IMG/VR virus record: IMGVR_UViG_3300048598_000585
Span: 1 to 50,742 of that record
Reading direction: 5' to 3' (one strand)
DNA: 50,742 bases
From: a virus
Lineage: Duplodnaviria; Caudoviricetes
Both the position numbers and the translations under genes were made by a program. Positions 21,509 through 50,588 of this stretch are shown here, one piece after another. The notes beneath the pieces were generated by a model. It was not told the DNA's origin. It searched no databases and was given only the letters and a program-made list of their open reading frames with translations. Each line of letters starts with the position of its first letter. Positions within the stretch are counted from its first letter, which is position 1.

Positions 21509-21509
21509 G

Positions 21510-21722
21510 CTAATCCCTGCTGTGCGTCGCCAGGCTGAACGCAGAAGGAGCAGCAGTACCTTGCGCGGCAATTTCCGACTCAAGATCCACGATGGCCTTC
21601 CGGATTTCGTCCATGCTTTGGTACTCGACAGCGCGATCGGTGAATTGCACACGTCGCACGCCGGCATACTTGGCGCGCTTCAATGCGTCAAGCATGGATT
21701 GCATCTCGGCAGCAGTGATCAC
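21510..21722 (-). CDS. Head-to-tail adaptor (gpW-like)
   Basis: 70 aa between terL and portal; GVRRVQF.DR.VEY.S..EI pattern. Confidence 0.85.
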   Translation of the reverse strand: MITAAEMQSMLDALKRAKYAGVRRVQFTDRAVEYQSMDEIRKAIVDLESEIAAQGTAAPSAFSLATHSRD

Positions 21723-28084: not shown

Positions 28085-29560
28085 TCACAAAGCTGGATGC
28101 GGCGAGAATCGAGAATCTGTTGGAACGGCGACGTGCTCTACCTGCACGCCGCGCTTGGCGGCAACCTCGGCCATCTGCTCGCCCGTCTTGGCAAGAACCG
28201 GTTCTTCTCCGGTGAGGCTGGCCAGACGACGGAGGATTGTGTCGCAATACCCAGGCGAGATCTCGCAGCCGAAACCCGTCCTACCCAGAACCTGGGCCGC
28301 CGCCAGCGTCGTTCCCGAACCCGTGAATGGATCGAAGACAACATCGCCGGGATCGGAAAACGCCTTCACGAAGAACTCCACCAACGCGCGTGGGAAGGGA
28401 GCCGAGTGCGATCCCTGGCTGCTCTCCGACTTCACCTCGACTACATTGCTGGGCCGAGCGATGCCACTGAAGCGGCCATCCTCGTCACTGGCTCCTGGCT
28501 GTGCCGCAGCGGACCCACGGGCGCCGGTGCCGAGGAGCCCGCTGCCGGACGTCGACTTTGGATTGCTCGGCGAATATTCAAAGCAGTCCTCGGACTTGTG
28601 TCCGACGGCCTGTGGCCGGAACTTGATCTGCTGCTGTTTGCAGAAATGAAAGACCGGCTCGAACGCGTTCTTGAACCTGTTGCCCCATCCACCTGGCACG
28701 CCGTTGTCAGTCTTGCGCCAGCAGAATTCGTCAACAAACCGCCAATTCCACTGCCGCTTGTGGGCCATCACGAGATCCATTACGTACAGACTGCGCTCGC
28801 CCTCTTCGGCGTGCGCCTTGATGTTCAGGAAGTAGGAACCATCCGGCGCCAGCACCGACTCAATCCCTGCCGCCACACTGCGATACCAGTCCACGTAAGC
28901 TTCAGGCGCCACCGGCCGGAAGCCGCTCGTGGGATCGTACTCGCGTTGCGTGGCGTACGGAGGGGAGGTAATCGCCACGTTCACCATCGCGCCGGCCAAC
29001 AGTTCGCGGACAGTCCTCACGTCGCGGCAATCGCCGCAGATGAGCCTGTGCCGCCCAACCATCCAAATGTCACCGGGGCGCGTGACGGGCTCAGCCGGAA
29101 CCTCGGACGGCGCGTCGTCGCTCGGGATTTCGGCAGCCTGAGCCTCACTCGTCTCACCGGTAAGCGCCTCAAGCTCCTGGTCGCTGAAGCCCAGCAACTC
29201 AAGATCGAATTCGGCGACCTGCAAGTCTTTCAATTCGAGGCTCAGCGCCTCGGCATCCCAGCCGCCCAACTCCGTGAGTTTGTTGTCGGCGATGATCAGC
29301 GCACGCCGTTGCAGCGGAGTTAAGTGCGCCAGGACGATTACCGGAACATCCGACATGCCGAGCTTCTGAGCAGCCCGCAGCCGAGCGTGGCCGGCAATCA
29401 CGCCGCCGTCTCCGTCCACCAGGATTGGTGAAGTCCACCCGAACTCCGTGATGCTGGCTGCCACCAGGGCGACTTGAGCTTCGGAGTGGGTGCGGCTGTT
29501 CCAGGCGAAGGGTAGGAGACTCACCACCGGCCGGAGTTCGATATGAGTGGGGAGATTCAT
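28085..29560 (-). CDS. ParB-N-fused DNA methyltransferase (N6/N4 family, SPPY; likely m4C)
   Basis: ParB domain (VIAGHARL), ITSPPY, HSAPFP and DPFTGSGTT. Confidence 0.93.
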   Translation of the reverse strand: MNLPTHIELRPVVSLLPFAWNSRTHSEAQVALVAASITEFGWTSPILVDGDGGVIAGHARLRAAQKLGMSDVPVIVLAHLTPLQRRALIIADNKLTELGGWDAEALSLELKDLQVAEFDLELLGFSDQELEALTGETSEAQAAEIPSDDAPSEVPAEPVTRPGDIWMVGRHRLICGDCRDVRTVRELLAGAMVNVAITSPPYATQREYDPTSGFRPVAPEAYVDWYRSVAAGIESVLAPDGSYFLNIKAHAEEGERSLYVMDLVMAHKRQWNWRFVDEFCWRKTDNGVPGGWGNRFKNAFEPVFHFCKQQQIKFRPQAVGHKSEDCFEYSPSNPKSTSGSGLLGTGARGSAAAQPGASDEDGRFSGIARPSNVVEVKSESSQGSHSAPFPRALVEFFVKAFSDPGDVVFDPFTGSGTTLAAAQVLGRTGFGCEISPGYCDTILRRLASLTGEEPVLAKTGEQMAEVAAKRGVQVEHVAVPTDSRFSPHPAL

Positions 29561-29639
29561 CCGATCAGGAGTGTGCGTACCAGACCGCGCACCAGCCCTG
29601 CGCACCTGAAATAGTCGGACTGACTAGGCTAAATGTGAA

Positions 29640-33950: not shown

Positions 33951-34285
33951 GGAAACTTGGGGAGACATCGGGGATACTTGGTGGAGACTTCCGCCACCCA
34001 TAGTCTCCACCGTTAAGTGACTCATTTTGTATTACTTGCAACCACGGTGGAGACTTGGGAGACTTCAACGCCGATTCCCGGCCTTCTCTCACATCGTGAA
34101 AACGCGTGTATCTATGTCTATACACACCGATACATGCGTTTCTTTTCGTGCGAGGCCTCTTGGAATAGTCTCCCAAGTCTCCCAAGTCTCCACCGTCCTC
34201 GTAAGTAATTGATTTTATATGCATAACATGGTGGAGACTATGTGGGGTCATAGTCTCCCAAGTCTCCACCGAAGTCTCCACCGCG
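33951..34285. repeat. GGAGAC/GTCTCC direct and inverted repeat cluster with AT-rich spacers; candidate replication origin
   Basis: About a dozen copies of (GGT/TG)GGAGACT in both orientations, including a 22-bp perfect inverted pair at 34044-34065/34175-34196. Confidence 0.75.
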
Positions 34286-37200
34286 AAAGTCCAGGAGGTC
34301 GGTACTGCGGGAGTCTGCAACCGCGCTGCCGGCGGCCGTGCTGCCCGAAGCGCTGCCGCCGTCGGCTGATGCAAGACCATACAGCACCCCAGTCCTGTGA
34401 TTGGTCGGGCCAATTTGCTTGACCGTGAGCCCGTTGAATACTCGATCCCTTTTCGCTGTCAGCGCTCTACCCAAACGTGACTGTTGCGAGCGTTCCGACC
34501 CGTCACCGCGCAGGTTTGCCATCAAGTCGCGCTCCTCACAAAATCGATTCAGTTCGCTGACTCTCATCGGCGCGTCGCGGGATGCCGCCCACCAGGCACT
34601 GGTGAACTCGCGCCACATCTGGCCGTCGGTGTCGGCCGCTTGGTAGAGCTCATTCAGGTTGCCAAGGAAGCCGGGAATCCCGGCCACATCCAAGACGCCG
34701 CCCATTGTCCCGGACCAACTTTCGAACGACCCCAATCGCGTCGCATGCAGTGGTTTCCCGGCAGCGATCCACGCTTGCGCCAGCGTGAGTGCCGCGTGGA
34801 CCAGTGACGAACGATTCTCTTTGGCCCAGTCGGCGATCAGCGGGTGCTTGAATCCCTCCCTCAGCCAGGGCATGTCGATCCTCGGGTCTATACGCAGCCG
34901 AATACACCGCCGGCTCATCTCACCGGACAGTCGCGGGTTGTTGCCGGTCATCAGCCAGAGGGCATTGTTGCGGAGGCGGAGCATCGTGGATTCGCCCAGT
35001 AGCCGATCCGTCCACCACTCCTGGGTCACGACCGAAGCCAGTGCAGCTGAATCCAGTTTTCGCTTTTCGCTGAGGTTGTCGATGAAGATGATCTGCCGGC
35101 CTGTCATCAGTTCCGCGGTGATCATCTTTCTGACTTCGTCTTCGCCTTCCGGCAGAGTCCGCCCTGGGGACGTCGCACCAGTGGAAACCACGCTGATCAA
35201 GCTGGCGAGCAGTCCTTTCCCGGAGCCTTGCGTGGGCGCTTCGATCAGGTGGATTGGAGCAAGCCCGCCAACGACGCGCTGCAGAAAAGGAAGAAGGATT
35301 GAGGCGACAGCGTGCGCGCGGTCCGAATCCTTCACAAAAGGGAAATCCACAAGCAGTTCGTCCACCAGGCGCCCTCTGGCGTACGCGATTTGCTCCCGTG
35401 TGGGATTCGCTGGGACCTCCGGGATTTCCAATGAATCGTCGGAGAACATCCAGAGAGCGTCAGCGCGGTGGTAGCCGGCGGAGGTGATCAGTGAGAAGTC
35501 GCGCCCGAATGTCGGGGTACGAATCACCGATTCCAGTGGCGGGAGCGTCGGATCTGGATTCACCAGCATGTCGCGGGCAGTGTCCTTCGATGGCGGGACA
35601 GCGAACACCGCGTGCTCTGTCAGCTTGAGCCAATTGGCGCTGCGAGCCAGCATGCCGTAGATTGCCGTTTCGCCGAGCACATCAATCCTCGCCTGGGCGC
35701 CAGTGCCGGCGATGCGCACAAGCGCGCCTCCCTTCTGAAACAGGAGTGGCCTGTCGGGGACGTCTGCACCTGCCAGCTCGTTCATAGCGTGAATGGCCAT
35801 CCAGGAATCGGCGATCACGTCACGTAGCTGCCGGTTGTTGACCTGGATGGCGGGCAGGGGTTGTGTTTCTGGATCGACCTCCGGTGCCGTCGCGGCCAGC
35901 GCACTCGGACGCCCTCCTCCAAACACGCCGCCTCGGGCAGCGCGTCGCGGACGGGCAATTTCCACAACCTTCATCTGCTTGCGAAGCGTGGTGACGGGAA
36001 GCCGGATCTTGCCGCAGCGCGCCTGAATCAGGCGGAGGTATCGGTCCTGCTCGATGGGATCGAATCGACCGGCCTCCGACAGGATCGGAGCGATGAGTCG
36101 GCTGAGGTCGGCATCCGGAACGTCAGTACTGAGCTTCGAAATGGCCAATTCCAGCGGTGTCATTGCAGCGGCGAGGATGGCTTCGAAGTCGGTCGCCGTC
36201 TTCCCAGAAGCGAAATACTCGTTGACGTCGATCTTGGAGTCGGCAAGCAGGCCTTCGGCTTCCTGCGGCAGGTTCTTGGCAGGGGAAGCGATATCGCCGC
36301 CGAAACACTCGCGGAGTTTGCGCCGCGCGACTTGCTGCTTTTCTCCGAGTGGGAGCACCGCGACTCGCGTAAGGATGCCGTGGGCGCCCAAAATGCGCGC
36401 CGTCTTCAGCGCACCTTGCGTCCCAGCCTCTGAAATCTCGTTGTCCTGGCAGATGAAGACGGTCTTCACGCCTGTCAGCTTCGGCAGCAGACGCTCCCAG
36501 TCGGCCTCACGGATCTGGATGGTGACCGGCGACACGACCGGGAATCCGTGTTCCATCAGGGAAATGCAATCGGTGACGCCCTCTGTGATGATCACGCGCT
36601 CGGGATGGGTGAGCAGCACGTCTTCGTTGTAGAGGACATCGTTTCGGATGCTCGATGCGACGTGGGCATTGTTGCGATCGTTGCGGAGGGCCAGCTTCTT
36701 GTACTTCGGCTTCTCCCAATCGTGATCAGGGGTCCACGGCGTGTGCCGCCCGATCATGAACACGACGTGGCCGCGGCTCCAATACGGAAAGACGAGGCGG
36801 CGGTCAAAGCATGGAACGAGCCCGTCCTGCGCTGTCGGTCGGAACGCCGAGGTGGCCGCCAGCTCGCGTAGCGTGAAGGCCCCTGGCCCATCGGACAATG
36901 TACGGATAACGCTGGGCCCGTCGTTGTCGGCCCAGCCAATCTTCAATCGCCTGGTCGTTTCTTCACCAATTCCGTACTTCGCTTTGAACCAGGTGAGAAC
37001 TTCGGCGTTGCCTGCCAACCGCTGGTGATATACGTCCGCCAGCGCGGTCAGCGCATCTCTAACTCTGACCGAGCGGCGGTGCTGCTCTTCCGCCTCGGCG
37101 ATCTCCTGCACGGAACGGCCAAGCTGCGACAGCGGCGGCGCCCCCACGCGCGTGGCCAAGAAGTCGCGTGCCTGGCGATGCGATTCCGGCATGGAACCGG

Positions 37201-37474
37201 ATTGCCCACGGGTCACAACGCCATGGCGGACAAACTCGACGAGTTGCAGGACATCGCCGCCGACACCGCAGGCATGGCAGAACCAACCCTGCTTGTCGAG
37301 CCAGACGTGGAGTGAGCGGTGCGACTGGCTCCGGTGATTCGGGCAATCGCAGAACAGGGTTTGCCGCGACTCTTGTGTGATGCGACCGGCGAGGAGTTCA
37401 CGGGCCAGATCACCGATATCCACATCGGTGATCTTCCTGTAATACACATGGACGTCAATCGGATGTGGGGTCAC
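34238..37474 (-). CDS. Primase-helicase (CHC2 zinc finger + TOPRIM + C-terminal P-loop helicase)
   Basis: CDCPNH..WFCHACGVGGD; ITEGVTD..CQDN; QGSGKG Walker A; FIDN; MTGNN. Confidence 0.9.
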   Translation of the reverse strand: MTPHPIDVHVYYRKITDVDIGDLARELLAGRITQESRQTLFCDCPNHRSQSHRSLHVWLDKQGWFCHACGVGGDVLQLVEFVRHGVVTRGQSGSMPESHRQARDFLATRVGAPPLSQLGRSVQEIAEAEEQHRRSVRVRDALTALADVYHQRLAGNAEVLTWFKAKYGIGEETTRRLKIGWADNDGPSVIRTLSDGPGAFTLRELAATSAFRPTAQDGLVPCFDRRLVFPYWSRGHVVFMIGRHTPWTPDHDWEKPKYKKLALRNDRNNAHVASSIRNDVLYNEDVLLTHPERVIITEGVTDCISLMEHGFPVVSPVTIQIREADWERLLPKLTGVKTVFICQDNEISEAGTQGALKTARILGAHGILTRVAVLPLGEKQQVARRKLRECFGGDIASPAKNLPQEAEGLLADSKIDVNEYFASGKTATDFEAILAAAMTPLELAISKLSTDVPDADLSRLIAPILSEAGRFDPIEQDRYLRLIQARCGKIRLPVTTLRKQMKVVEIARPRRAARGGVFGGGRPSALAATAPEVDPETQPLPAIQVNNRQLRDVIADSWMAIHAMNELAGADVPDRPLLFQKGGALVRIAGTGAQARIDVLGETAIYGMLARSANWLKLTEHAVFAVPPSKDTARDMLVNPDPTLPPLESVIRTPTFGRDFSLITSAGYHRADALWMFSDDSLEIPEVPANPTREQIAYARGRLVDELLVDFPFVKDSDRAHAVASILLPFLQRVVGGLAPIHLIEAPTQGSGKGLLASLISVVSTGATSPGRTLPEGEDEVRKMITAELMTGRQIIFIDNLSEKRKLDSAALASVVTQEWWTDRLLGESTMLRLRNNALWLMTGNNPRLSGEMSRRCIRLRIDPRIDMPWLREGFKHPLIADWAKENRSSLVHAALTLAQAWIAAGKPLHATRLGSFESWSGTMGGVLDVAGIPGFLGNLNELYQAADTDGQMWREFTSAWWAASRDAPMRVSELNRFCEERDLMANLRGDGSERSQQSRLGRALTAKRDRVFNGLTVKQIGPTNHRTGVLYGLASADGGSASGSTAAGSAVADSRSTDLLDFRGGDFGGDLGDYDPT

Positions 37475-39669
37475 ACGCGATCCTCCGGATGGAGCAGGAA
37501 GGAGAGAAAGGTGTTTCGACGGTCGACCTGGCGCTTGGCGGCGCAGTTGTCAATGCCCCAGCGGTCGCCGAGGATGATTACCGAGTCCTTGGCGCGCGTG
37601 ACCGCCGTGTATAGAAGATTGCGGTGGTGCATGAACGAGTGCGACTTATGGGCGATCACGAGCGCACAAGGGAATTCCGATCCCTGCACCTTGTGAATTG
37701 AGGTCGCATAGGCCAGCTGAATATTGCCGAGAGCATCGCTGCCGCTCTTGATCTCCACAGGCCGGCCATCGAAGTCGATCTCGAGGCTGCCGTCCGACTT
37801 CGCCGCCAGGACGACACCCATGGCTCCGTTCATCACGCCCAACTCATAGTCGTTCTTGGTCTGGATCACCTTGTCGCCCGGATACGGCCTTGCGCGGTGG
37901 CCGGCTTCGACGGTCAGCACATTGACGCCGAACAACTTCTTTTGCAGGAGGCGCTGCAGTTCGATGTTCAATTCCACTGTGCCGAGTGGGCCTTTGTGCG
38001 TCGGCGTGAGCACCTGGACGTCGCGAATCAGGTCGTAGCCGAGCCGTTCATGAAGAACTTCGTCGAAGAGAAGCAGCAGCATTCGACGAACATCCTCGCG
38101 GTCGGAGAACTTATCGATGACGTACCAGGGCCGACGCGGGCCCACGAACGAATCCGACGTAGGCCGCACTTCGCCGTTGAGGATGGCGGTGGAATTCTCC
38201 TTCAGGACTCCGGCCTGGCGAATGATCCTTGTCAGTACCGTGGTGGGAATCGCACGGGACCGCACAAGGTCTCGCAGCAGGTTCCCCGGACCCACCGGCG
38301 GCAACTGGTTGTGATCCCCGACAAGAACCACGGCAGTGCGTGCGCGATCCACAGCCTGGAACAGCCGCCAGGCGAGTGGAACGTCCGTCATCGAAACTTC
38401 ATCCACCACGAGGATGTCGGCTTCAATCGGATTCAGAGCGTCCCGCGCATAGGTGTGGCCATTGAAACCCAGCAGCCGATGAATAGTGCTTGCCTCGTGC
38501 CCAACTACCTCTTCAATGCGTTTGGCTGCTTTGCCGGTCGGCGCGGCCAGAACGAGCTTCACTTCCAGTCGTTCGGCAATACTGGCAATGGTCGAAACGG
38601 CATAAGTCTTCCCGCTGCCAGCGCCGCCCGTCATCAGGGAGATGGAGCACGACATGGCGTTCTTCACCGCATCCCTCTGCTCGGAATTCAATTCGCCGCC
38701 CTCGGCGTCGAGTAATCCCTGTATATCGGTGACGGCGTGCGGACTGCGCCGACCGGCGGTCTTCATGACTTCGGCGAGTTCCGTCTCCATCCGGTGAATC
38801 TCGGGATCGGCAACCACAAGCCGTTCGAACGGCTGGGACACAAGTCGCCCCTCGCCGATCAGGGCTTCCAGGTGCCCCTCAATCACCTCGCGGCTATCGA
38901 GCGTGTCCATCACGAGCAGCGTGTTGGCGCGGTTAAGCAGATCTTCGTATTCGACCCAGCAATCTCCGTCATCGAGTGCGGTGAGGATACAGAAGTGGAG
39001 CCCTGCCCGAATTCGTGACGGCAGATCCTTCGGCGTCCCCATCTTGCGCGCGATCTTGTCGACTCGCTTGAAGCCGAAGCCGACGATCTCCCGGACGAGC
39101 ACGTAGGGATCTTTCTCGAGAATCGGAACGACCATGCTGCCGAACTTCTCCACCAGCGTGGTCACCTGATGGTGGGTGAGCTCAAAGCTGGCCAAGTAAG
39201 TCATCGCGCCGTTGAAGTCGCTGTTGGCGATCCAGATGCGCTGGAGGTCGAGAATCGCTTCCAACGCCACCTTTGCGGTCGCAGCTACGGCCTCGGGCTG
39301 GTTCCGGATCGCCACGTCGAAGCGCGCGCCGAACTCATCGGCAATCAACCGCGCCTTCACAGGCCCGATGCCTTTGACGTCAGGGTGGTTCGCCAGGAAG
39401 TTCGCCAGGCCATCCGGGTCCATCTCCTGATCGAAACCCATGCAGTCGGCCGCGAATTGCCGACCGTACTTCGGATGGTGAGTCCACTGGCCTTCCAGCC
39501 GAACGGCGTCATTCTCCCTGGCAAATACCTTCCCCGCGAAGTTGATGAGATTGCCCTCTGTCGTGCGGAGGCGCCCGGCGCTGAACGCCGGGCCCGAGTA
39601 GAAAACCGTCTCCACGATTCCGCGCAGGGAAGAAAGCACTCCCGCGGCACTCGACTTGGCCTTCGTCAT
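37471..39669 (-). CDS. recD2: RecD2-like SF1 helicase
   Basis: HPKYGRQF, HhH KGIGPVKA, GGAGSGKT, APTGKAA, VDEVSM, VGDHNQLPPVGPG, HKVQGSEF, LYTAVTRAK. Confidence 0.93.
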   Translation of the reverse strand: MTKAKSSAAGVLSSLRGIVETVFYSGPAFSAGRLRTTEGNLINFAGKVFARENDAVRLEGQWTHHPKYGRQFAADCMGFDQEMDPDGLANFLANHPDVKGIGPVKARLIADEFGARFDVAIRNQPEAVAATAKVALEAILDLQRIWIANSDFNGAMTYLASFELTHHQVTTLVEKFGSMVVPILEKDPYVLVREIVGFGFKRVDKIARKMGTPKDLPSRIRAGLHFCILTALDDGDCWVEYEDLLNRANTLLVMDTLDSREVIEGHLEALIGEGRLVSQPFERLVVADPEIHRMETELAEVMKTAGRRSPHAVTDIQGLLDAEGGELNSEQRDAVKNAMSCSISLMTGGAGSGKTYAVSTIASIAERLEVKLVLAAPTGKAAKRIEEVVGHEASTIHRLLGFNGHTYARDALNPIEADILVVDEVSMTDVPLAWRLFQAVDRARTAVVLVGDHNQLPPVGPGNLLRDLVRSRAIPTTVLTRIIRQAGVLKENSTAILNGEVRPTSDSFVGPRRPWYVIDKFSDREDVRRMLLLLFDEVLHERLGYDLIRDVQVLTPTHKGPLGTVELNIELQRLLQKKLFGVNVLTVEAGHRARPYPGDKVIQTKNDYELGVMNGAMGVVLAAKSDGSLEIDFDGRPVEIKSGSDALGNIQLAYATSIHKVQGSEFPCALVIAHKSHSFMHHRNLLYTAVTRAKDSVIILGDRWGIDNCAAKRQVDRRNTFLSFLLHPEDRV

Positions 39670-40124
39670 GGTTGCCACCTTGCGTGAGCGCCGAGCAGGT
39701 AAGCCTGGACAAACTGACAGGCCGCCTGACGGTTGGAACAAAAGAACACGGGGACGCGGAAGTCGAGGGTGATGGACAGGCTGCTGCCGAGCACAGCGTT
39801 GGGATGAGCACCGCCTCGGTAGCGCCCTTGCAGCACTTCCAGCAAGCTGGCCTCGACGACCACGCAAGCAGCGCGGTAGCCAGCCAGTTTCGAGAGTTCG
39901 CGCCGAAAGCGGGCTCGCTGGTGAATCAACGTGGAGACGAAATCGTCGAGCGTTTTGCGTTCAACGGCAACCACATCCTCCAGGCCCGCGACCGAGTAAT
40001 CCCCGGCTGGCAGGGCGCGGCGTTCCACCGCCACCAGCCGGGAATCGAACGAAAACGGCTCCTGCTCCCTCGTGTCGGCGATAAGGGTGACCAGCGGCGG
40101 GCTAGAACGGGACAAGAGCGTCAC
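39666..40124 (-). CDS. ERCC4 (XPF/Mus81-type) domain nuclease
   Basis: ADTREQ, GDYS and VERKTLDDF motifs. Confidence 0.9.
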   Translation of the reverse strand: MTLLSRSSPPLVTLIADTREQEPFSFDSRLVAVERRALPAGDYSVAGLEDVVAVERKTLDDFVSTLIHQRARFRRELSKLAGYRAACVVVEASLLEVLQGRYRGGAHPNAVLGSSLSITLDFRVPVFFCSNRQAACQFVQAYLLGAHARWQP

Positions 40125-42783: not shown

Positions 42784-43296
42784 TCATTGCCAGCCTCGAT
42801 TAGGCCTAAAGCCAGCGGCGACAAACTTCCGGCGTAACCGGAGAATGCGGTCGTGGACGGTGGATCGAGGCAGGCCCAAGATCCGGCCCGCCTCCGCCGG
42901 CGAGTGTTCCATAAGCAGGCGAACCAGCTGCTGGTCGTAGTGATCAAACGCTGATGAGAGCCTCTCGACATCAGCTTGGAACTCGCCGGCCTCCGCCTCG
43001 GATTCGATCGGCTGCAGCCCTGCTGAACTCAGAGAAACGTTCGGAGGCAATCGCCGGGCCGTCCGCACGAGAGTTGCGATGCGGCTGGCGATGACTCGCT
43101 CGATGTATGTCCGGAGGGACGCCCGCGCTGGGTCGAATTGTGGGAGGGCACGCCAGCAGGCTGTCAGCCCCTCCTGCTCGAAATCAGCCAGGTCCGCGAC
43201 CCGGATGGCGCCACTCACAACCGCCGCCGTGGCGCGAGCCCTCGCCGCACGCACTGCCATCGGATAGGCCTGCTCGAAGGTCGCCGCCTCAACCAT
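42784..43296 (-). CDS. ECF-like sigma-70 family factor
   Basis: DFEQEG..W....FDPARASLRTY (region 2) and C-terminal HTH SPAEAGRILGLPRSTVHDRI (region 4). Confidence 0.75.
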   Translation of the reverse strand: MVEAATFEQAYPMAVRAARARATAAVVSGAIRVADLADFEQEGLTACWRALPQFDPARASLRTYIERVIASRIATLVRTARRLPPNVSLSSAGLQPIESEAEAGEFQADVERLSSAFDHYDQQLVRLLMEHSPAEAGRILGLPRSTVHDRILRLRRKFVAAGFRPNRGWQ

Positions 43297-43636
43297 TGCG
43301 GAGCCTCCCGGCCATTTCGACTTCCATCGAGAACGGCAGCCCATGCTTAACTTCGAGCGTCCGGATTTCCCCGATGTCGACGGCACGAACGTACTCGAAC
43401 AGTTCGGCTACCTGCGGTTTGAGTTCGAACTCGGCAGCTGGGACCTTCGACGCGCCCGGCTCCTGGGAGCCGAACTTCACTTCGCGCACGGAAGTAGGCC
43501 ATGGGGTGAGCACGATCTCGCCGCGCTCAATGCGGAGATACTCGAACCGCCCGAATCTGAGCGTCCGAATTGCGGCGATCAAGCGGCGCTCGGAAAGGCG
43601 CAGATCTTTGGTGGTGGATGGACGGCGGCTGGTCAC
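43289..43636 (-). CDS. Hypothetical protein (115 aa)
   Basis: Coupled ORF; FGRFEYLRIERGE...LEVKHGLPF. Confidence 0.7.
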   Translation of the reverse strand: MTSRRPSTTKDLRLSERRLIAAIRTLRFGRFEYLRIERGEIVLTPWPTSVREVKFGSQEPGASKVPAAEFELKPQVAELFEYVRAVDIGEIRTLEVKHGLPFSMEVEMAGRLRNG

Positions 43637-45260: not shown

Positions 45261-46457
45261 TCACCCCACGATGTGCTTGTCATTCAGCCCGGAGCAATTT
45301 GCGGTTACGACCTGCGCGAGGAAATGAGCAGTTCTTCTGACTTCGTGGGCCGACCATGGATTCACGATGATGGACTCACCGACGGTCAGAGTATATTCAA
45401 CGCCGGCGACCTCGATGCTCATTTCGCCTTCGAGTACGGTGTAAACCTCCGTGGCCCGACGGTGATAGTGACGGGATTGTTTGGCTCTCTCGTCGAACAG
45501 TGCGAATTCTACGCCGGCCGTGACGGCATAGTGGCGTTTCCCATTCTGAGCCAGTGCTGTCCAAACTACATCGCTGAGGCTTTCGGCGCCGGAGTACCTG
45601 TAGGTTATGGCGACTTTCTGATCGCCACGGTTGCCGAGGTGCGCTTTCGGGTTCCGCCGCGCCGCCTCAATCTCACCTGAGCGAAGAAGCACCGCGGGCA
45701 ACGGGAATCGCCAGAAATGGTCCATGGTTGTGAAAGCGTACAACGAGATGCTGCCGAACTCGATGGTGCGGCCAACGGTACAAATGGCGGCGGTCTCTGA
45801 CCATCGCTCAACATGCGCCGCAGCTTCCAGCGCCAGTTCTGGGTTGGCGAAATATCCAAGTGTGATGTGCGGAACCCACTCGGGGTTCTGTGGCTTCCCA
45901 AAGGCTGCAAACTGCTCATCTAGCTCACGCCGCCGTTGCTCAATTTGCGTCATGGTACGCTCGGATTCCTCATCCACCGGGGCTAAGCGTGCGATGAGCG
46001 CGGTTTGGCTAGGCAACACCGCGATTTCCGACAACCGGAATCGAATCTTCCACCTGCCGGGGAGTGGCAGCGTCGTTGGAGGGAACTGCGTCGGTAACGG
46101 GGCGACGATAGCCGCGGGGAGGCGGACAAGAACACCTTCGAAGACTTCGCGCTCGGGTTGACGGATCAGGTGGATGTTCGCACAGTGAACAAGGTCCTGG
46201 ACCGTAACGTGATAGGACGAAGACGGCGTCAGGCACACACCGTGGCTGCCTGCCAGTTGCTCCTTGCCGATCTTATCGATGGCCTGTGCCAAACCCCGGT
46301 ATAAGGAAAGATCGATACCTTCCATTTCTGATCGGATGACAGGCAATCCGTCTTCCTCGAAGGCAGGGCCCGGATTGTCGCAGATGTAGCTGAAACCGCG
46401 ACAATTGGCGAAAGCCGGAGGATCCACGGATTGGACCTTCGGGTTGGTGATTTCCAT
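45261..46457 (-). CDS. 2H phosphoesterase (DUF1868-like) fused to a C-terminal cupin
   Basis: Two HxT motifs (SYHVTV, VPHITL); cupin HYH...EVYTVLEG...PWSAH; AAAGGAG RBS before ATG 46457. Confidence 0.85.
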   Translation of the reverse strand: MEITNPKVQSVDPPAFANCRGFSYICDNPGPAFEEDGLPVIRSEMEGIDLSLYRGLAQAIDKIGKEQLAGSHGVCLTPSSSYHVTVQDLVHCANIHLIRQPEREVFEGVLVRLPAAIVAPLPTQFPPTTLPLPGRWKIRFRLSEIAVLPSQTALIARLAPVDEESERTMTQIEQRRRELDEQFAAFGKPQNPEWVPHITLGYFANPELALEAAAHVERWSETAAICTVGRTIEFGSISLYAFTTMDHFWRFPLPAVLLRSGEIEAARRNPKAHLGNRGDQKVAITYRYSGAESLSDVVWTALAQNGKRHYAVTAGVEFALFDERAKQSRHYHRRATEVYTVLEGEMSIEVAGVEYTLTVGESIIVNPWSAHEVRRTAHFLAQVVTANCSGLNDKHIVG

Positions 46458-46911
46458 AGTCTCTCCTTTGTGGCTGAACCAGACGTGGGTTGACAAGCGT
46501 TGGAGGCGGGCATGAGTGTAGTGGATCTACACGGGCACCGCGCAACGGCTGCCAGCTGTAAGAAGACGAGGATGCTGCTTCGGACCGAGAGAGGCCCGAT
46601 ATGGGAAGACAATGCTGGCCTGACGCGGCTGCTGTGGAAATGGCGGGGACACGGCTCAGGAGATCCGTGCCCCGAACCCCCGCCAGCGGGTTGTTTCAAA
46701 TTCAATGGCGTCACCACCTTTGCGAACCTGAACTTCAGACGCGCCGCATTGCTCTCGCGTCTATCTATGCAAGGGGATGGCCAACCTCGATTTCGGGCTG
46801 CGTCTCTGCGTCCTTCGCACGATGCCGACAGCGTGCTCGTGCGTTGTCAGAAAGTTGCGGCGGTGTTCATTCGTGCCTGTAGCTGTCCGATGATTTGCAC
46901 CTTGGGCTCAT

Positions 46912-46937
46912 GATACGAAATCTTCGTATCGATACGA
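46912..46937. promoter_or_regulatory. Overlapping palindromes (candidate operator/enhancer)
   Basis: GATACGAA-ATC-TTCGTATC and TCGTATCGATACGA. Confidence 0.55.
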
Positions 46938-46970
46938 CAACCGTGATAATCTGCCGGCAGAGGTGCTGTT

Positions 46971-48128
46971 GTGCGGAGCAAGAAGAGCATCCCGGTGGGC
47001 CTGCCTGTTGCCAGGGAGGAGCGGAGCGGAGTCCAAATCGTTGAGAGGGATGGGTATTGGAAAACCGAGCTCGGCGGCCACTTCCCACGCGGCGCACCAA
47101 CCTGCACTTTGGTCGGCACCCGCGAAGGCCTTGAAGAAGTACTTCGCCCTCTTCGCCTGGTGGGTCCGTGCGACGCCCGAGTGTTGATCACCGGCGAGAC
47201 AGGCACGGGCAAGAACACCGTCGCAGAGCTCATCCACCATATGCACCAAGAGCGGCGTCATCATCAATTTCGGCGAACAAATCTGGGCGCGCTGGTCCCG
47301 GAACTTGCGGCGTCGCAGCTATTTGGACACGTTAAGGGCGCGTTCACTGGCGCGGTGAAAGACTCGCCGGGAATTGTGGTTGAGTCAAATCACGGAACTT
47401 TGTTCCTGGACCAGCTCTCTGATGCGTCCGCAGCCGTCCAGACTATGCTGCTGACTTTGTTGGAGGTGAAGAAGGTGAACCCGGTCGGAGCCCATGGTGT
47501 GCCCGGAAAGAACGTCGACTTCCGGGTGATTGCCGGGACGATCGAATCTCCGGAAGAACTGCGCGACGCGCGCAAGGTCCGGGAGGACCTCTTCTACCGG
47601 ATCAACGAGTACCATATCGAGTTGAAGCCGCTGCGGTTTCGCCGCTCCGAGATTCTGCCGATGGCGAGGTTCTTCCTGGAGCGAGCACGCGAACTGCGGA
47701 AAGATATCTCGGTTTTGACTGATATCGCTCCTGATGCTCAGCGGGCGCTTGATGCCTACCCATGGCCGGGGAATGTGCGGGAGCTTGATCACACGATTCG
47801 TGGGGCCGTGGTTGAGTCGCGGGCGGACCCGACCGCGACCGTCCTGGAGGCGCAGTGGCTTCGCATGGCGCCGCAGCGATCCTATCGGGCGTCCTCGGTC
47901 GACTACGAAACGGCGCTCCACCGATTCAGGCACGAGTGGGCACATCGGCTCTTAGCGAACGGACTCAATAACAAGAGAGCTGCGGCAGCTATGGGGATCT
48001 CCCAGGACTCGTTCCGCAAGTATCGCGACTGGAATGAGCCAGGCACGGGCGAATGGCCGAGCGGCAATACCCTTCCGGATGGCTCGCCGCAGGTACTCAG
48101 ATCAAAGGGCGCTGCGCATGGGCAGTGA
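46971..48128 (+). CDS. Sigma54-interacting AAA+ enhancer-binding-like protein without a sensor domain
   Basis: GETGTGK, LFGHVKGAFTGA, LFLDQ, REDLFYRI, WPGNVREL and Fis-like HTH. Confidence 0.9.
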   Translation: MRSKKSIPVGLPVAREERSGVQIVERDGYWKTELGGHFPRGAPTCTLVGTREGLEEVLRPLRLVGPCDARVLITGETGTGKNTVAELIHHMHQERRHHQFRRTNLGALVPELAASQLFGHVKGAFTGAVKDSPGIVVESNHGTLFLDQLSDASAAVQTMLLTLLEVKKVNPVGAHGVPGKNVDFRVIAGTIESPEELRDARKVREDLFYRINEYHIELKPLRFRRSEILPMARFFLERARELRKDISVLTDIAPDAQRALDAYPWPGNVRELDHTIRGAVVESRADPTATVLEAQWLRMAPQRSYRASSVDYETALHRFRHEWAHRLLANGLNNKRAAAAMGISQDSFRKYRDWNEPGTGEWPSGNTLPDGSPQVLRSKGAAHGQ

Positions 48129-48530
48129 CTTGGCTGCAATGGCGGATTCGGCGCGCAGATCGGCGAACTCGCATTGCTGGTCCTCCCACAGAACCATCTG
48201 CGCCACCGCTCGGAGGGTCCTTTCCGGAATCGAGGCGTGCGTTGGCTGTATTTCCGACAAAAGCACTTCCTGAATGGTGGGTGCAAGGAGTGAAAGGTTC
48301 ATGATCTGAGTTAGACGGGCTCGCGTGACGTAGCCGAGCCTGGCCAAGTCGGCGTAGTCGCGGACCTCGCCGCGGTCCACCATCTCCTGGAGCTTGATGG
48401 CGAGTGCCATTAAACGTGTGATCCGTGGAATGCGCGGCGCCGTCGGTTCCGGTGCCGGTTTCCGCTTCGCAAGCCGCCCGGCCCGCCTAGCCCAATTTAG
48501 TGGGATCTCCCGTTCGTGGGTTTCTTTCAC
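48102..48530 (-). CDS. Recombinase-cassette accessory protein (HTH-like)
   Basis: DYADLARLGYVTRARLTQIMNLSLLAPTIQE; overlaps the recombinase stop. Confidence 0.75.
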   Translation of the reverse strand: MKETHEREIPLNWARRAGRLAKRKPAPEPTAPRIPRITRLMALAIKLQEMVDRGEVRDYADLARLGYVTRARLTQIMNLSLLAPTIQEVLLSEIQPTHASIPERTLRAVAQMVLWEDQQCEFADLRAESAIAAKSLPMRSAL

Positions 48531-50065
48531 TTCGGCACTCCCTGTTGGCAGAATTCGCTAATCCCGTTTGAGTTGTAGGTGACCCTTACTTTGTCGCCGC
48601 GGGCGTCGTAGCCGACACGCTGGACCAGTTGGCGCACCAGACGGCACTGCTGTTCGATCGTCAGCGTCTTCCAGACTTCGTCGAAGTTGCCCAGCTCCCG
48701 GCGCACCAGCGAGTCGTCAATCCGGAGCCGATCGCCGCGAGCTACGGACTTGCTCAGTTGCTCGGCTTTCGCCTGACCCGCCTCGATCGATTCACGGAGT
48801 GTCGCTTCCCGTTCGGCGTCCATCGCCATCGCGCGTGCGAGTTGCGACTTTGAGTTGCGGGTTTGCACGTTTACGGCCTTCAGCTCCTCGCGACGTCGGT
48901 TTAGTTCTTCTCCCAGACGCTGACGTGCGGCGCGAACTGCTTCCTCCACCACTTTCGGTGCCAGCACGAAGTGCCGGATGCTTTCAATCACCGCCTCCTC
49001 GACCACCGGCGCGGAAACCGCCCGCGTCGTACATCCATCGCCGCTCCGTTGGCTTGCCCGAAGGCAAACGTAGTAGCGATACCGACGTTGCTTGCTGGAC
49101 GAGTACGTGGGCGACATCGCCGACCCGCAGCACGTGCAGTAAAGCAGGCCACGGAGCAGAGACTCCAGCCTCGGCCGATGCTGGGTTCCCGGATTGCGGG
49201 TGTTCTCCTTCAACTTCTCTTGGACCAGGTCAAAGGTCCGGTCGTCGACTGTCTGGGCGTGGTTGGCTGCGACAACCTCATCGTCCGCGCGGATGCGTGC
49301 TGCATAGAGCGGGTTCGCCAATATATTGTAGACGTGGCACTTCCGCATGGGGTGGCCACCGTACAACTTGCCATCCTTGGTCGTCCACTGCTTGTTATGC
49401 CAACCCAGATCGGCGCACTTCGCCACGATGCCATAGACCGTATGGCCTTCCAAGTACCACTCGAAGATTTGCCGTACGCGGTCGGCTTCCTCTGAGTTGA
49501 CCACGAGGCAATTGGCGTCCAGGTCGTAGCCCAGCGGAAGGTGGCCGCCGGTCCACTTGCCCCGCTTCCGCGCCAGGACTTGTTTGTCGCGTGTGCGCTC
49601 GGAGATGATCTCTCGTTCGAATTGGGCGAACGACAGCAGGATATTCAGCGTGAGGCGGCCGAGGGATGTCGTGGTGTTGAACTGCTGCGTGACAGAGACA
49701 AACGTCGCGCCTTGCGCGTCCAAAATCTCCATGATCTTGGCGAAGTCGCGGATGGAGCGACTCAGCCTGTCCACCTTGTACACAACCACGCAGTCGACCT
49801 TCTTGGCCTGGACATCGGCCAGCAGCCGGCGCATGGCGGGACGCTCCATGTTGGCGCCGGTGTACCCGCCGTCGTCATATTGGACTGGCAGGAGAGTCCA
49901 TCCCTCGCCTGCCTGACTGCGGATGAATGCCTCGCCGGAATCACGCTGGGCGTCGAGCGAGTTGAAGTCCTGGCCCAAGCCTTCCTCCGTCGATTTTCTC
50001 GTGTAGATGGCACAGCGCACCGTTGGGCGCTCCTTCGTTCCGTTGCCGTTATTTTTGTTCGCCAC
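48527..50065 (-). CDS. Large serine recombinase (integrase)
   Basis: CAIYTRKST, VYKVDRLSRS, FAQFERE, recombinase domain, LYCTCCG zinc ribbon and coiled coil. Confidence 0.96.
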   Translation of the reverse strand: MANKNNGNGTKERPTVRCAIYTRKSTEEGLGQDFNSLDAQRDSGEAFIRSQAGEGWTLLPVQYDDGGYTGANMERPAMRRLLADVQAKKVDCVVVYKVDRLSRSIRDFAKIMEILDAQGATFVSVTQQFNTTTSLGRLTLNILLSFAQFEREIISERTRDKQVLARKRGKWTGGHLPLGYDLDANCLVVNSEEADRVRQIFEWYLEGHTVYGIVAKCADLGWHNKQWTTKDGKLYGGHPMRKCHVYNILANPLYAARIRADDEVVAANHAQTVDDRTFDLVQEKLKENTRNPGTQHRPRLESLLRGLLYCTCCGSAMSPTYSSSKQRRYRYYVCLRASQRSGDGCTTRAVSAPVVEEAVIESIRHFVLAPKVVEEAVRAARQRLGEELNRRREELKAVNVQTRNSKSQLARAMAMDAEREATLRESIEAGQAKAEQLSKSVARGDRLRIDDSLVRRELGNFDEVWKTLTIEQQCRLVRQLVQRVGYDARGDKVRVTYNSNGISEFCQQGVPK

Positions 50066-50588
50066 GCGTCACTCCTGGCCGGTGTCCCAGTCCATAGAAG
50101 GCGAAGCCGTTCCATCGCGTGCCCGTGGCTTCGGTCACGGCTTTGCTCAACGACCTGTAGATCCTGCCATTCCACTCAAAGCCGCCGTCTGCCCGGACAT
50201 GGACGATGATGTCCTTCCCCTGATAGCGGCGGATTAGGGGTGTGCCCGGCAATGGCAGTCGCGGGTCGAGTCCTGGCCTTAGCCGCGCCTCCGCCGTTCT
50301 GGTCTCGTCGATGGCCTGCCTCAGTAAGTTCTTCGGCGCGCGGATGCGCAAGTCGGCGTCGTCCGCGATCTCGAGCGCGCGGCTCCGCGCACGCTCCGAG
50401 AGCCCGCCCCACGCGTTCGCCTGAATGCGCCAGGCAATGCGGCGGAACAGGAACTGCTTGTGATTGGATCGGGAGGCCTCACTGAAGACCTCACGATACT
50501 TATCCTTAAGCTGCGCGGTGGTCAGGTGGCGCAGGCTCTCGATCTCTTCTCTGATCCGGGTTGGCTCGATTGCTGTTTCGTTTCTCAT
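50049..50588 (-). CDS. DUF2924 domain protein
   Basis: RRIAWRIQ..GGLS, PGT.LIRRYQG and YRSLS.....TGTRWNG..F motifs. Confidence 0.92.
   Translation of the reverse strand: MRNETAIEPTRIREEIESLRHLTTAQLKDKYREVFSEASRSNHKQFLFRRIAWRIQANAWGGLSERARSRALEIADDADLRIRAPKNLLRQAIDETRTAEARLRPGLDPRLPLPGTPLIRRYQGKDIIVHVRADGGFEWNGRIYRSLSKAVTEATGTRWNGFAFYGLGHRPGVTRGEQK

What the first reader, a model, noticed from the sequence alone, without database searches (positions are those of the whole stretch)
46971..48128. Prophage-borne, sensor-less sigma54 activator with a natural Walker-B E->Q change and intact GAFTGA
Seen: Walker B reads LFLDQ (codons GAC CAG near 47409) instead of the near-invariant LFLDE, and ESELFG reads ASQLFG. 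Walker A, the GAFTGA sigma54-contact loop, the R-finger region, sensor II and the HTH are all retained, and there is no receiver/GAF/PAS/CARF domain. Established: Walker-B Glu substitutions in AAA+ proteins usually allow ATP binding but impair hydrolysis, and in bEBPs the ATP-bound state engages sigma54. Inference: the phage may encode a sigma54 trap, a dominant-negative poison of host bEBP hexamers, or a repurposed repressor, rather than an activator.
Basis: partly seen in the sequence, partly recalled or inferred. Interest (0 to 1): 0.8.

Follow-up and report, generated by a model that had tools for sequence, protein, structure and literature searches.

The report
Phage sigma-54 activator with crippled ATPase
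A provirus carries a stripped-down sigma-54-type gene activator whose catalytic glutamate is naturally replaced by glutamine in a whole small clade, so nature has kept a variant that laboratory work suggested would bind ATP tightly but hardly burn it.

Summary
ORF 46971-48128 (+) encodes a 385-aa sigma-54 activator (bEBP) with Walker A, GAFTGA, arginine fingers, sensor II and a C-terminal three-helix domain. It has no sensor domain, and its Walker B reads LFLDQ.

Q is not a sequencing error. All 17 clade sequences that cover the motif have DQ, down to 50% identity, and they form one well-supported branch inside a sensor-less, RtcR/PspF2-like subfamily. The other 26 aligned subfamily members have DE. 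So do 214 of 214 GAFTGA-to-Walker-B segments in the loci I fetched.

The gene lies in a provirus, between the serine recombinase and the early genes. It is transcribed divergently from a 2H-phosphoesterase-cupin gene. A DE-bearing orthologue in a Bryobacteraceae genome has the same divergent partner, and both intergenic regions hold a palindrome and a -24/-12-like element facing the partner.

I therefore read it as the local regulator of a mobile two-gene cassette, not a global sigma-54 poison. Published PspF E108Q data show tight ATP binding, constitutive hexamers, under 1% ATPase and activation only at low ATP. That makes a slow or low-ATP-tuned activator most likely; a promoter-locking repressor remains open.

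The scan had not noted this clade on other DNA.

The parts
46971..48128 (+). Sensor-less bEBP-like gene (385 aa): AAA+ sigma-54 interaction domain, lid and C-terminal three-helix domain.
   Evidence: ORF. Pfam PF00158 6e-46 and PF25601. AF2 mean pLDDT 86.3. Foldseek finds FleQ, NtrC1 and PspF with TMt 0.85-0.89. PADLOC RtcR_PspF2 matches on the AAA-HTH part only.
47193..47216 (+). Walker A, GETGTGKN (residues 75-82).
   Evidence: G75, G78, G80 and K81 are invariant in 31 sequences.
47307..47354 (+). AASQLFGH (in place of ESELFGH), then VK, then an intact GAFTGA loop (residues 113-128).
   Evidence: AASQLFGH-type motifs are a feature of the whole subfamily, including its DE members. GAFTGA is invariant in the DQ clade.
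47400..47414 (+). Walker B, LFLDQ. Q148 (CAG, 47412-47414) replaces the catalytic Glu.
   Evidence: DQ is in 17 of 17 clade sequences that cover the motif. The rest of the subfamily has E in 26 of 26.
47577..47600 (+). Arginine-finger region VREDLFYR (R204, R210).
   Evidence: Both are invariant in the 31-sequence alignment and in the DQ clade.
47769..47783 (+). Sensor II region GNVRE (R270).
47901..48032 (+). C-terminal three-helix (Fis/HTH-like) putative DNA-binding domain.
   Evidence: AF2 helices at 312-329, 334-341 and 345-352 with block pLDDT about 95. Weak Pfam HTH_23, E 0.011. The PADLOC profile matches through to its position 473 of 481.
46912..46937 (.). Candidate operator or enhancer: GATACGAA-N3-TTCGTATC overlapping the perfect 14-bp palindrome TCGTATCGATACGA, 34 bp upstream of the bEBP start.
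   Evidence: It is the only exact copy in the 50.7-kb window. A 30-bp palindrome sits at the equivalent place in L161.
46769..46783 (-). -24/-12-like element TGGCCATCCCCTTGC(A) (GG-N10-GC), facing the 2H-cupin gene.
   Evidence: It has 2 mismatches to TGGCAC-N5-TTGC. The chance of one such site in this spacer on this strand is 0.147. L161 has one at the equivalent place, with chance 0.030.
45261..46457 (-). Divergently transcribed partner gene: a 2H-phosphoesterase (two HxT motifs) fused to a cupin, 398 aa.
   Evidence: Pfam 2_5_RNA_ligase2 and Cupin_2. The orthologue in L161 is 39% identical, E 5e-80. H83, T85 and H197 are invariant.
48102..50588 (-). Integration module next to the cassette: a 142-aa recombinase-associated gene, a large serine recombinase and DUF2924. 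Its 3' end overlaps the bEBP 3' end by 27 nt.

Best explanation
The gene is the regulator half of a mobile two-gene cassette.

What the protein is. It is a CARF-less, RtcR/PspF2-like bacterial enhancer-binding protein. I infer that it binds the palindrome next to its own start codon. From there it would contact sigma-54 RNA polymerase, through its intact GAFTGA loop, at a -24/-12-like promoter that drives the divergent 2H-phosphoesterase-cupin gene.

What changed. In one branch of this sensor-less subfamily the Walker-B glutamate was replaced once by glutamine, and the change has been kept since.

Expected behaviour, by analogy with the engineered PspF E108Q. The protein should bind ATP very tightly and sit as a ready-made hexamer. 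It should engage sigma-54 holoenzyme in a long-lived ATP-bound state and hydrolyse ATP very slowly. The most likely outcome is a low-output or poised activator. Its activity would depend on ATP occupancy, and probably on low ATP, rather than on a sensor domain.

Shown: the anatomy, the conservation of Q, the single origin, the provirus context and the conserved divergent pairing.

Inferred: DNA binding at the palindrome, use of the -24/-12-like site, and all kinetic behaviour.
For: 1. Domain and motif anatomy and the bEBP fold.
2. DQ is present in 17 of 17 clade sequences that cover the motif, out of 20 examined; the other 3 are fragments without it.
3. In the 6-sequence clade alignment spanning 50-86% identity, Q148 is invariant. 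So are Walker A, N104, GAFTGA, D147, R204, R210 and R270.
4. The 8 DQ rows are one side of a branch with SH-aLRT 99. They are nested in a 34-row sensor-less group with support 100. This is from the 47-row quick tree; the careful search did not finish.
5. Branch lengths inside the DQ clade (0.5-0.9) are similar to those of the DE sister lineages.
6. Three of the 12 residues that define the clade lie at Walker B: Q148, L149 and D151.
7. The cassette:
- The DE orthologue in L161 is 47% identical. It is also divergent from a protein with 2H and cupin domains that is 39% identical to the window's partner, E 5e-80.
- That copy sits in a conjugative-element-like setting with TraG/VirD4, a DNA ligase, SSB and RelA_SpoT.
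- Among 401 genomes of that phylum, the 2H-cupin protein and a subfamily-level bEBP were each found in only one genome, the same one.
8. Both intergenic regions carry a palindrome beside the bEBP start. Both carry a GG-N10-GC element on the partner's strand, with chance 0.147 and 0.030.
9. The genome that holds the L161 cassette encodes sigma-54.
10. PspF E108Q has under 1% ATPase, about 30-fold tighter ATP binding and constitutive hexamers. It forms an ATP-dependent intermediate, needs GAFTGA, and is most active near 0.02 mM ATP (PMC4132715: abstract, first part of Results and Discussion read).
Against: 1. The cassette rests on only two DNA contexts, the window and L161. No 2H-cupin partner of intermediate identity turned up in the protein searches.
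2. The window's -24/-12-like site has two mismatches and lies 312 nt from the partner's ATG. Alone it is not significant (P 0.147).
3. The PspF paper itself concludes that at 2-3 mM cellular ATP E108Q is unlikely to support transcription. That favours the repressor or trap rivals unless this protein behaves differently.
4. The host of this provirus is unknown, so the presence of sigma-54 there is not shown. The record itself has no Sigma54_DBD match.
5. No DNA of other clade members was available, so no dN/dS could be computed. The constraint is shown only at the protein level.
Confidence: 0.5

Rival explanations
1. Promoter-locking repressor, or sigma-54 trap. The ATP-bound Q148 hexamer would hold sigma-54 holoenzyme in a dead-end intermediate. 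That would silence the 2H-cupin promoter, or would titrate sigma-54 or poison host bEBP rings across the cell.
For: PspF E108Q forms stable ATP-dependent intermediates and competitor-resistant complexes. It is defective on duplex DNA at millimolar ATP, and its authors consider it unlikely to support transcription at cellular ATP levels. GAFTGA and the whole ATP site are invariant in the clade, as a trap would require. The gene lies in the lysogeny-side orientation next to the recombinase.
Against: The same variant does activate transcription at low ATP. The protein keeps a DNA-binding domain, and its unique operator-like palindrome lies beside a divergent partner gene that a DE orthologue shares. 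This suggests the same local job, not a global one. A purely global trap would not need the HTH domain or the conserved partner. Mixed rings with host bEBPs were not testable.
Confidence: 0.22
2. Sigma-54-independent DNA-binding regulator. On this view ATP binding only drives oligomerisation on the palindrome, giving autoregulation or sigma-70-type control as in atypical EBP homologues.
For: The palindrome lies 34 bp from the bEBP start, where it could autoregulate. The -24/-12-like site is weak on its own. Sigma-54 is not shown for the unknown host.
Against: GAFTGA is strictly conserved in all 6 aligned clade members and across the subfamily. As I recall, sigma-54-independent relatives have lost or altered it. 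The arginine fingers and sensor II are also invariant.
Confidence: 0.1
3. Ordinary activator. Q148 would be functionally tolerated because a nearby acidic residue (for example the clade-specific D151), or stimulation by the closed complex, restores adequate hydrolysis.
For: D151 and L149 changed together with Q148 and are invariant in the clade. The ATPase of PspF E108Q is stimulated 4-fold by the closed complex.
Against: Six of the 10 canonical outgroup sequences that have DE also carry D or E at the position of D151, so it is not a new catalytic residue. E is otherwise invariant in 214 of 214 segments.
Confidence: 0.13
4. Sequencing error or a decaying gene.
For: None was found. CAG differs from GAG by one base.
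Against: Besides the window's own gene call, 16 sequences from other metagenome assemblies have Q. The ORF is intact and the clade is conserved (mean column identity 67%), with no excess branch length.
Confidence: 0.02

Closest known systems
PspF E108Q, the engineered Walker-B variant of the E. coli phage-shock activator (PDB 4QNM, 4QNR, 4QOS; PMC4132715)
   Same: Both are sensor-less bEBP AAA+ domains with an intact GAFTGA and the same E->Q change at the Walker-B glutamate. 4QNM is among the Foldseek matches (TMt 0.86). Wild-type PspF is also transcribed divergently from its target operon (recalled).
   Different: PspF E108Q is a laboratory mutant. This is a natural, fixed, clade-wide state. 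Sequence identity to PspF is only about 32%. The target here is a 2H-cupin gene, not psp. No PspA-like partner is known.
RtcR, the CARF-AAA+-HTH activator of the rtcBA RNA-repair operon, and the PADLOC 'RtcR_PspF2--CARF_AAA_HTH' profile
   Same: These are the best profile matches: PADLOC 219 bits over profile positions 168-473 of 481, and NCBIfam RtcR 199.9 bits. As in rtcR-rtcBA, the regulator is divergent from a gene for an enzyme of the cyclic-phosphate chemistry class (2H phosphoesterase). The RtcR operon layout and signal come from search-listing abstracts (PMC7790460, PMC9650030) and from recall.
   Different: The CARF domain is absent. The score is far below the RtcR equivalog cut-off (199.9 against 650), and NorR scores almost the same (198.8). 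The partner is not RtcA or RtcB. Walker B is DQ.
Htm (Gp204 of Mosigvirus AV110), a phage-encoded bEBP-like AAA+ protein (bioRxiv 10.64898/2026.10.06.757011; abstract and passages read)
   Same: It is phage-encoded, has a bEBP-like AAA+ fold, and its Walker-B glutamate is replaced, so reduced ATPase is expected.
   Different: Htm has DD rather than DQ. It lacks the GAFTGA loop and the C-terminal HTH, has an extra N-terminal domain, binds ssDNA, and comes from a lytic T4-like phage. It is not a sequence relative found in my searches.
DE-bearing members of the same sensor-less subfamily (for example the L161 Bryobacteraceae protein, P0018)
   Same: 43-52% identical. They share the FRRTNxGALVPELAASQLFGH signature, the length and the lack of a sensor. 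In L161 the divergent 2H-cupin partner, the palindrome and the -24/-12-like site are also shared.
   Different: They keep the catalytic Glu, 26 of 26. The L161 copy lies in a conjugative-element-like region, not a provirus.

Membership tests
Bacterial enhancer-binding proteins (sigma-54 activators, Pfam PF00158) | AAA+ sigma-54 interaction domain with Walker A | tested here: met
   PF00158 scores 156.6 bits against a cut-off of 20.2, over residues 48-217. GETGTGKN is present. The fold matches FleQ, NtrC1 and PspF.
Bacterial enhancer-binding proteins (sigma-54 activators, Pfam PF00158) | GAFTGA sigma-54 contact loop | tested here: met
   GAFTGA lies at residues 123-128 and is invariant in the clade.
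Bacterial enhancer-binding proteins (sigma-54 activators, Pfam PF00158) | Walker B hhhhDE with the catalytic glutamate | tested here: not met
   The motif is LFLDQ. Q148 aligns with the E of FleQ and ZraR. E is present in 214 of 214 background segments.
Bacterial enhancer-binding proteins (sigma-54 activators, Pfam PF00158) | Arginine fingers and sensor II arginine | tested here: met
   R204 and R210 are invariant, and R270 nearly so, in the 31-sequence alignment. All three are invariant in the clade. Their assignment as fingers and sensor II is by position in the family alignment.
Bacterial enhancer-binding proteins (sigma-54 activators, Pfam PF00158) | C-terminal HTH that binds an upstream enhancer | tested here: inconclusive
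   A confident three-helix domain is modelled, but only a sub-threshold Pfam HTH is found. A unique palindrome lies nearby. Binding was not tested.
Bacterial enhancer-binding proteins (sigma-54 activators, Pfam PF00158) | Acts at a -24/-12 sigma-54 promoter using ATP hydrolysis | tested here: inconclusive
   Candidate GG-N10-GC sites face the partner gene in the window and in L161 (P 0.147 and 0.030). Hydrolysis and activation cannot be tested here.
RtcR-type CARF-AAA+-HTH regulators | N-terminal CARF sensor domain | tested here: not met
   The PADLOC profile matches only from its position 168 onward. There is no Pfam domain in residues 1-47 and no split ORF upstream.
RtcR-type CARF-AAA+-HTH regulators | AAA+-HTH core specifically similar to RtcR/PspF2 profiles | tested here: met
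   PDLC01995 scores 2.6e-65. The same holds for P0004, P0121, P0008 and the L161 protein.
RtcR-type CARF-AAA+-HTH regulators | Controls a divergent rtcBA RNA-repair operon | tested here: not met
   The divergent gene encodes a 2H-phosphoesterase-cupin fusion, not RtcA or RtcB.
PspF-type sensor-less bEBPs controlled in trans | No regulatory domain; target transcribed divergently | tested here: met
PspF-type sensor-less bEBPs controlled in trans | A partner protein that binds and inhibits the AAA+ domain (PspA-like) | not testable with these tools
   No PspA homologue was noted in the ORFs I scanned. Whether any neighbour binds the protein is open.
Sigma-54-independent EBP homologues (TyrR, VpsR and R. 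capsulatus NtrC type; recalled) | GAFTGA lost or altered | tested here: not met
   GAFTGA is intact and invariant, so I do not file the protein here.

The most novel reading that the evidence does not exclude
The ATP site itself is the sensor. On this reading the DQ clade consists of natural 'E108Q-type' activators that are locked or inhibited at normal millimolar ATP. They would fire only when cellular ATP collapses to tens of micromolar, as in deep starvation or in nucleotide depletion during phage attack or abortive-infection defence. Firing would switch on the 2H-phosphoesterase-cupin enzyme carried by the same mobile cassette. This would be a bEBP that reads energy charge directly, with no sensory domain and no partner.
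Probability: 0.15. Interest if true: 0.85.

Novelty: new variant of a known kind. Interest (0 to 1): 0.62.

Why it matters
The Walker-B glutamate is the textbook catalytic residue of AAA+ motors, and E->Q is the standard laboratory 'trap' mutation. For sigma-54 activators, the one detailed study of this mutant (PspF E108Q) concluded that it would be unlikely to support transcription at cellular ATP levels.

A natural clade has kept Q through divergence down to about 50% identity while preserving every other ATP-site residue and the sigma-54 contact loop. That state must therefore be useful in vivo, whether as a slow or poised activator, a low-ATP switch or a promoter lock. The clade gives bEBP mechanists a natural system, with DE-bearing sister proteins as built-in controls, for asking how much hydrolysis sigma-54 activation really needs.

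It also defines a small mobile cassette of a CARF-less RtcR-like regulator and a 2H-cupin enzyme, found in one provirus and one conjugative-element-like region. Its biology is unknown; RNA-end or cyclic-nucleotide processing, defence and counter-defence are all possible.

Tried and rejected
As a result P0001, P0004 and P0121 and the longer contigs of cluster 1 could not be inspected, and no dN/dS was possible.

2. Further DNA relatives.
- The viral-contig scan with the single protein gave none.
- With alignment A1 it gave 103 relatives, of which 80 were kept. All are at most 43% identical and all have DE.
- A back-translated GTLFLDQLxDA pattern gave 0 matches.
- The metagenome scan used generic patterns and returned only relatives 33-44% identical.
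- The genome-contig scan returned one subfamily member, L161.
- Deposited phages (65 records) and plasmids (2592 records) hold only relatives below 60% identity, at most about 40% among the 12 rows listed for each.

3. The 2H-cupin query found nothing in deposited phages or in viral contigs. It hit two plasmid-borne stand-alone 2H proteins with no bEBP nearby. The 'longer' protein search gave nothing, which is weak evidence.

4. Complex prediction with the bEBP AAA+ domain (residues 40-300) and the 2H-cupin protein gave no verdict. This is no evidence either way.

5. Sequencing runs. No RNA holder was listed, and all DNA holders had small shares. The laid contigs mostly matched the Walker A and GAFTGA regions of unrelated bEBPs. 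They gave next to no cover of 47373-47468, so they say nothing about codon 148 or about expression.

6. Other negatives:
- Rfam and tRNA scans of the window found nothing.
- The E. coli-type sigma-70 promoter scan of 46300-48400 found none.
- The 300-nt leader of the 2H-cupin gene does not fold unusually well (z -1.24).

7. A split sensor domain was rejected, because the ORFs in the upstream spacer have no Pfam hit.

8. A role as master regulator of the phage was rejected, because the palindrome occurs nowhere else in the window.

9. The careful tree search did not finish, so the quick tree is reported. Rows left out of the tree:
- P0002, the window's own shorter gene call
- P0029, a 212-aa fragment
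- most near-identical cluster-1 members
- all other listed hits beyond those named in the script

10. Supplementary files of the papers were not opened. Supplementary Figures S1-S4 of PMC4132715 may bear on the ATP-dependence claims.
Full report
**1. The observation**

The ORF listing gives a 385-aa ORF at 46971..48128 (+) with a GTG start. Its sequence reads GETGTGKN (residues 75-82), FRRTN (N104), AASQLFGH (113-120), GAFTGA (123-128), LFLDQ (144-148; GAC CAG at 47409-47414), VREDLFYR (203-210) and GNVRE (267-271).

Pfam finds Sigma54_activat (6.2e-46), AAA_lid_14 and only a sub-threshold HTH. It finds no receiver, GAF, PAS or CARF domain. In HMMER alignments to solved FleQ and ZraR domains, the query's 'gtlfldql' is paired with 'gtlfldei' and 'aasqlfgh' with 'lleselfgh'.

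An AlphaFold2 model built on a 31-row alignment has mean pLDDT 86.3. It shows a small N-terminal beta-meander, the AAA+ core and lid, and three C-terminal helices at 312-352. Foldseek places it with the FleQ, NtrC1, FlrC, LuxO and PspF AAA+ domains (TMt 0.85-0.89). The matches include the Walker-B mutant structures 3M0E and 4QNM.

The source's own gene call (P0002, 315 aa) starts at V71 and would cut into the AAA+ domain. The 368-aa relatives start at the position homologous to 46971, so I use the long form.

**2. Is Q more than chance or error?**

The word-indexed search listed 120 of 7985 hits. The exhaustive representative search listed 150 of 141,542. A motif scan of all 266 proteins then held found DQ only in P0001-P0005 and P0121.

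Reading the clusters added 14 members of P0001's 54-member cluster. Of the 20 sequences then examined, 3 are fragments without the motif. The other 17 all read GTLFLDQL(S/A)DA.

In the 6-row clade alignment (50-86% identity to the window, mean column identity 67%), Q148 is invariant. So are Walker A, N104, GAFTGA, D147, R204, R210 and R270.

A 47-row tree puts the 8 DQ rows on one side of a branch with SH-aLRT 99. This is the quick IQ-TREE search; the careful search did not finish. The DQ rows lie inside a 34-row sensor-less group (support 100) whose other members have DE. Branch lengths inside the DQ clade are like those of its DE sisters.

In a 47-row re-alignment, 26 of 26 other subfamily members and 10 of 10 canonical outgroups have E. 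Three of the 12 clade-defining residues (Q148, L149, D151) lie at Walker B.

As background, 77 of 77 recognisable Walker-B motifs in 80 viral bEBP ORFs have DE. So do 214 of 214 distinct GAFTGA-to-Walker-B segments in loci L001-L240.

The change is therefore real, arose once, and has been retained. I could not compute dN/dS because no DNA of other clade members was obtainable.

**3. Surroundings**

The record is an IMG/VR provirus, 92% complete by CheckV.

On the minus strand lie these genes:
- capsid (17833-19917)
- lambda-type portal (19946-21667)
- TerL gpA (21719-23656)
- two ParB-N-terminal/N6_N4 methyltransferases
- a primase-like protein (34238-37474)
- RecD2 (37471-39867)
- AAA_24 and PD-(D/E)XK proteins
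- a sigma-70 region-2 protein (42784-43386)
- a large serine recombinase (48527-50065), followed by DUF2924

The bEBP is the one clearly coding gene on the plus strand in this end of the element. It converges on the recombinase module, with a 27-nt overlap. It diverges from a 398-aa gene (45261-46457) that has 2_5_RNA_ligase2 (2H) and Cupin_2 domains.

**4. A conserved cassette**

The only subfamily member with DNA in reach is L161, from a Bryobacteraceae MAG. Its protein is 343 aa, 47% identical, and has DE.

It is also divergent from a protein with 2H and cupin domains (815 aa). That protein is 39% identical to the window's partner over residues 19-395, E 5e-80. Around it lie TraG/VirD4, an ATP-dependent DNA ligase, SSB and a RelA_SpoT-domain gene, so it sits in a different kind of mobile element.

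In 401 genomes sampled from that phylum, the 2H-cupin protein (E at most 1e-10) and a subfamily-level bEBP (E at most 1e-55) were each found in one genome only, the same one. Only 4 candidates per genome were scored, so sensitivity is limited.

The protein lists also show bEBP and 2H proteins whose longest contigs have identical lengths: 223,042 (the window's host contig), 24,871 (P0269/P0288) and 85,998 (P0008/P0350). The 82-85%-identical 2H-cupin group parallels the 85-87%-identical bEBP group.

No partner of intermediate identity for P0004, P0005 or P0121 was seen. This counts against universality, or reflects the length limits of the search.

**5. Regulatory DNA**

In the window's 474-bp spacer, GATACGAA-N3-TTCGTATC overlaps a perfect 14-bp palindrome at 46912-46937, 34 bp from the bEBP start. 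No other copy exists in the window.

About 130 bp away, on the partner's strand, lies TGGCCATCCCCTTGC(A), which has the GG-N10-GC spacing.

L161's 143-bp spacer has a 30-bp palindrome next to the bEBP start. It has CGGCACCGGAGGTGC(A) 43 nt before the partner's ATG.

The chance of such a site on that strand is 0.147 in the window and 0.030 in L161. If the two are independent, the joint chance is about 0.005. This is suggestive, not proof. The L161 genome encodes sigma-54. The window's host is unknown.

**6. Family placement**

The best PADLOC profile is 'RtcR_PspF2--CARF_AAA_HTH' (2.6e-65), matched only over profile positions 168-473 of 481, which is the AAA+-HTH part. The same is true of P0004, P0121, P0008 and the L161 protein. 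NCBIfam ranks RtcR first (199.9 bits against a cut-off of 650), with NorR almost equal at 198.8.

The subfamily is thus a CARF-less branch related to RtcR/PspF2-type activators. AASQLFGH in place of ESELFGH is a trait of the whole subfamily, DE members included. It is not linked to Q148.

**7. Mechanism**

I read the abstract, the first third of the Results and the Discussion of Darbari et al. 2014 (PMC4132715). They report the following for PspF E108Q:
- It has under 1% of wild-type ATPase and about 30-fold higher ATP affinity.
- It is hexameric without nucleotide.
- It forms an intermediate complex with holoenzyme in ATP.
- It depends on GAFTGA.
- Its ATPase is stimulated 4-fold by the closed complex.
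- It activates transcription best near 0.02 mM ATP. It is defective on duplex DNA at the ATP levels that are optimal for wild type.
- The authors judge it unlikely to support transcription at 2-3 mM cellular ATP.

Transferred to this natural protein, that gives three options: a slow or poised, low-ATP-favoured activator of the partner gene; a complex that locks the promoter; or residual ordinary activity.

The conserved cassette shared with a DE orthologue, the unique local operator and the retained HTH argue for a local regulator rather than a global sigma-54 trap. The strict retention of GAFTGA, the arginine fingers and sensor II argues against a sigma-54-independent role.

I put 0.5 on the slow or low-ATP-tuned activator, 0.22 on lock or trap, 0.13 on ordinary activity, 0.10 on a sigma-54-independent regulator and 0.02 on error or decay.

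**8. Comparison and novelty**

They found the engineered E108Q work and a 2026 preprint on the phage protein Htm. Htm has DD in Walker B but lacks GAFTGA and the HTH. None of the papers these searches listed reports a natural DQ bEBP. The phrase 'degenerate Walker B' combined with 'bEBP' gave 0 papers. These searches cover open-access text only.

The scan's own notes hold other degenerate EBP-like proteins on other genomes, but not this clade.

I rate the finding a new variant of a known kind.

Noticed in passing
window 17510-17524 (-): This is the only exact match in the window to TGGCAC-N5-TTGC, and with flanks it reads TTGGCACCAACCTTGCAAT. It lies inside a 117-aa ORF (17410-17763) just after the capsid gene and about 140 nt upstream of the next minus-strand ORF (17060-17368). 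No palindrome of the 46912 type is nearby. About 0.1 exact matches would be expected by chance for 10 specified bases.
   Followed up: partly
window 46971-47180: The source's gene call for this protein (P0002, 315 aa) starts at V71 inside the AAA+ domain. Residues 1-70 are conserved with the 368-aa relatives, so the gene is under-called in the record.
   Followed up: yes
L001-L029 and other viral loci (IMG/VR): Many viral contigs encode bEBPs of about 435-460 aa that match the PADLOC RtcR_PspF2 profile over AAA+-HTH. They have an unmatched N-terminal region of about 125-160 aa and ESELFGH-region motifs such as AASLLFGH or APSAFFGH. All have DE. Phage-borne RtcR-like activators therefore seem common, though some may lie in host flanks.
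   Followed up: partly
L161 2869-17576: The DE-type cassette lies among TraG/VirD4, a CN_hydrolase-domain protein, an ATP-dependent DNA ligase, SSB and a RelA_SpoT-domain protein. This is an integrative-conjugative-element-like island in a Bryobacteraceae MAG.
   Followed up: partly
window 30448-32850 (-): An 800-aa protein with a nucleoside 2-deoxyribosyltransferase-like N-terminus and an ORC/CDC6-like ATPase. It gives a weak PADLOC hit to a TIR 'Effector' profile (5e-05), so it may be a defence-type gene inside the provirus.
   Followed up: no
window 25832-27091 and 28085-29605 (-): Two separate ParB-N-terminal plus N6/N4 DNA methyltransferase fusions lie in one provirus.
   Followed up: no
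protein P0256 (463 aa): A receiver-length bEBP with an intact GAFTGA whose Walker B reads GTVFLDAI (E->A). It is another natural departure from DE and is unrelated to this clade.
   Followed up: no
proteins P0004, P0005, P0121: The three deeper DQ-clade members carry RW four residues before the FRRTN motif (for example ETRWEHLF), where the window has RR. As I recall, this is the position of PspF W56, the contact for its inhibitor PspA. I did not check this by an alignment to PspF.
   Followed up: no
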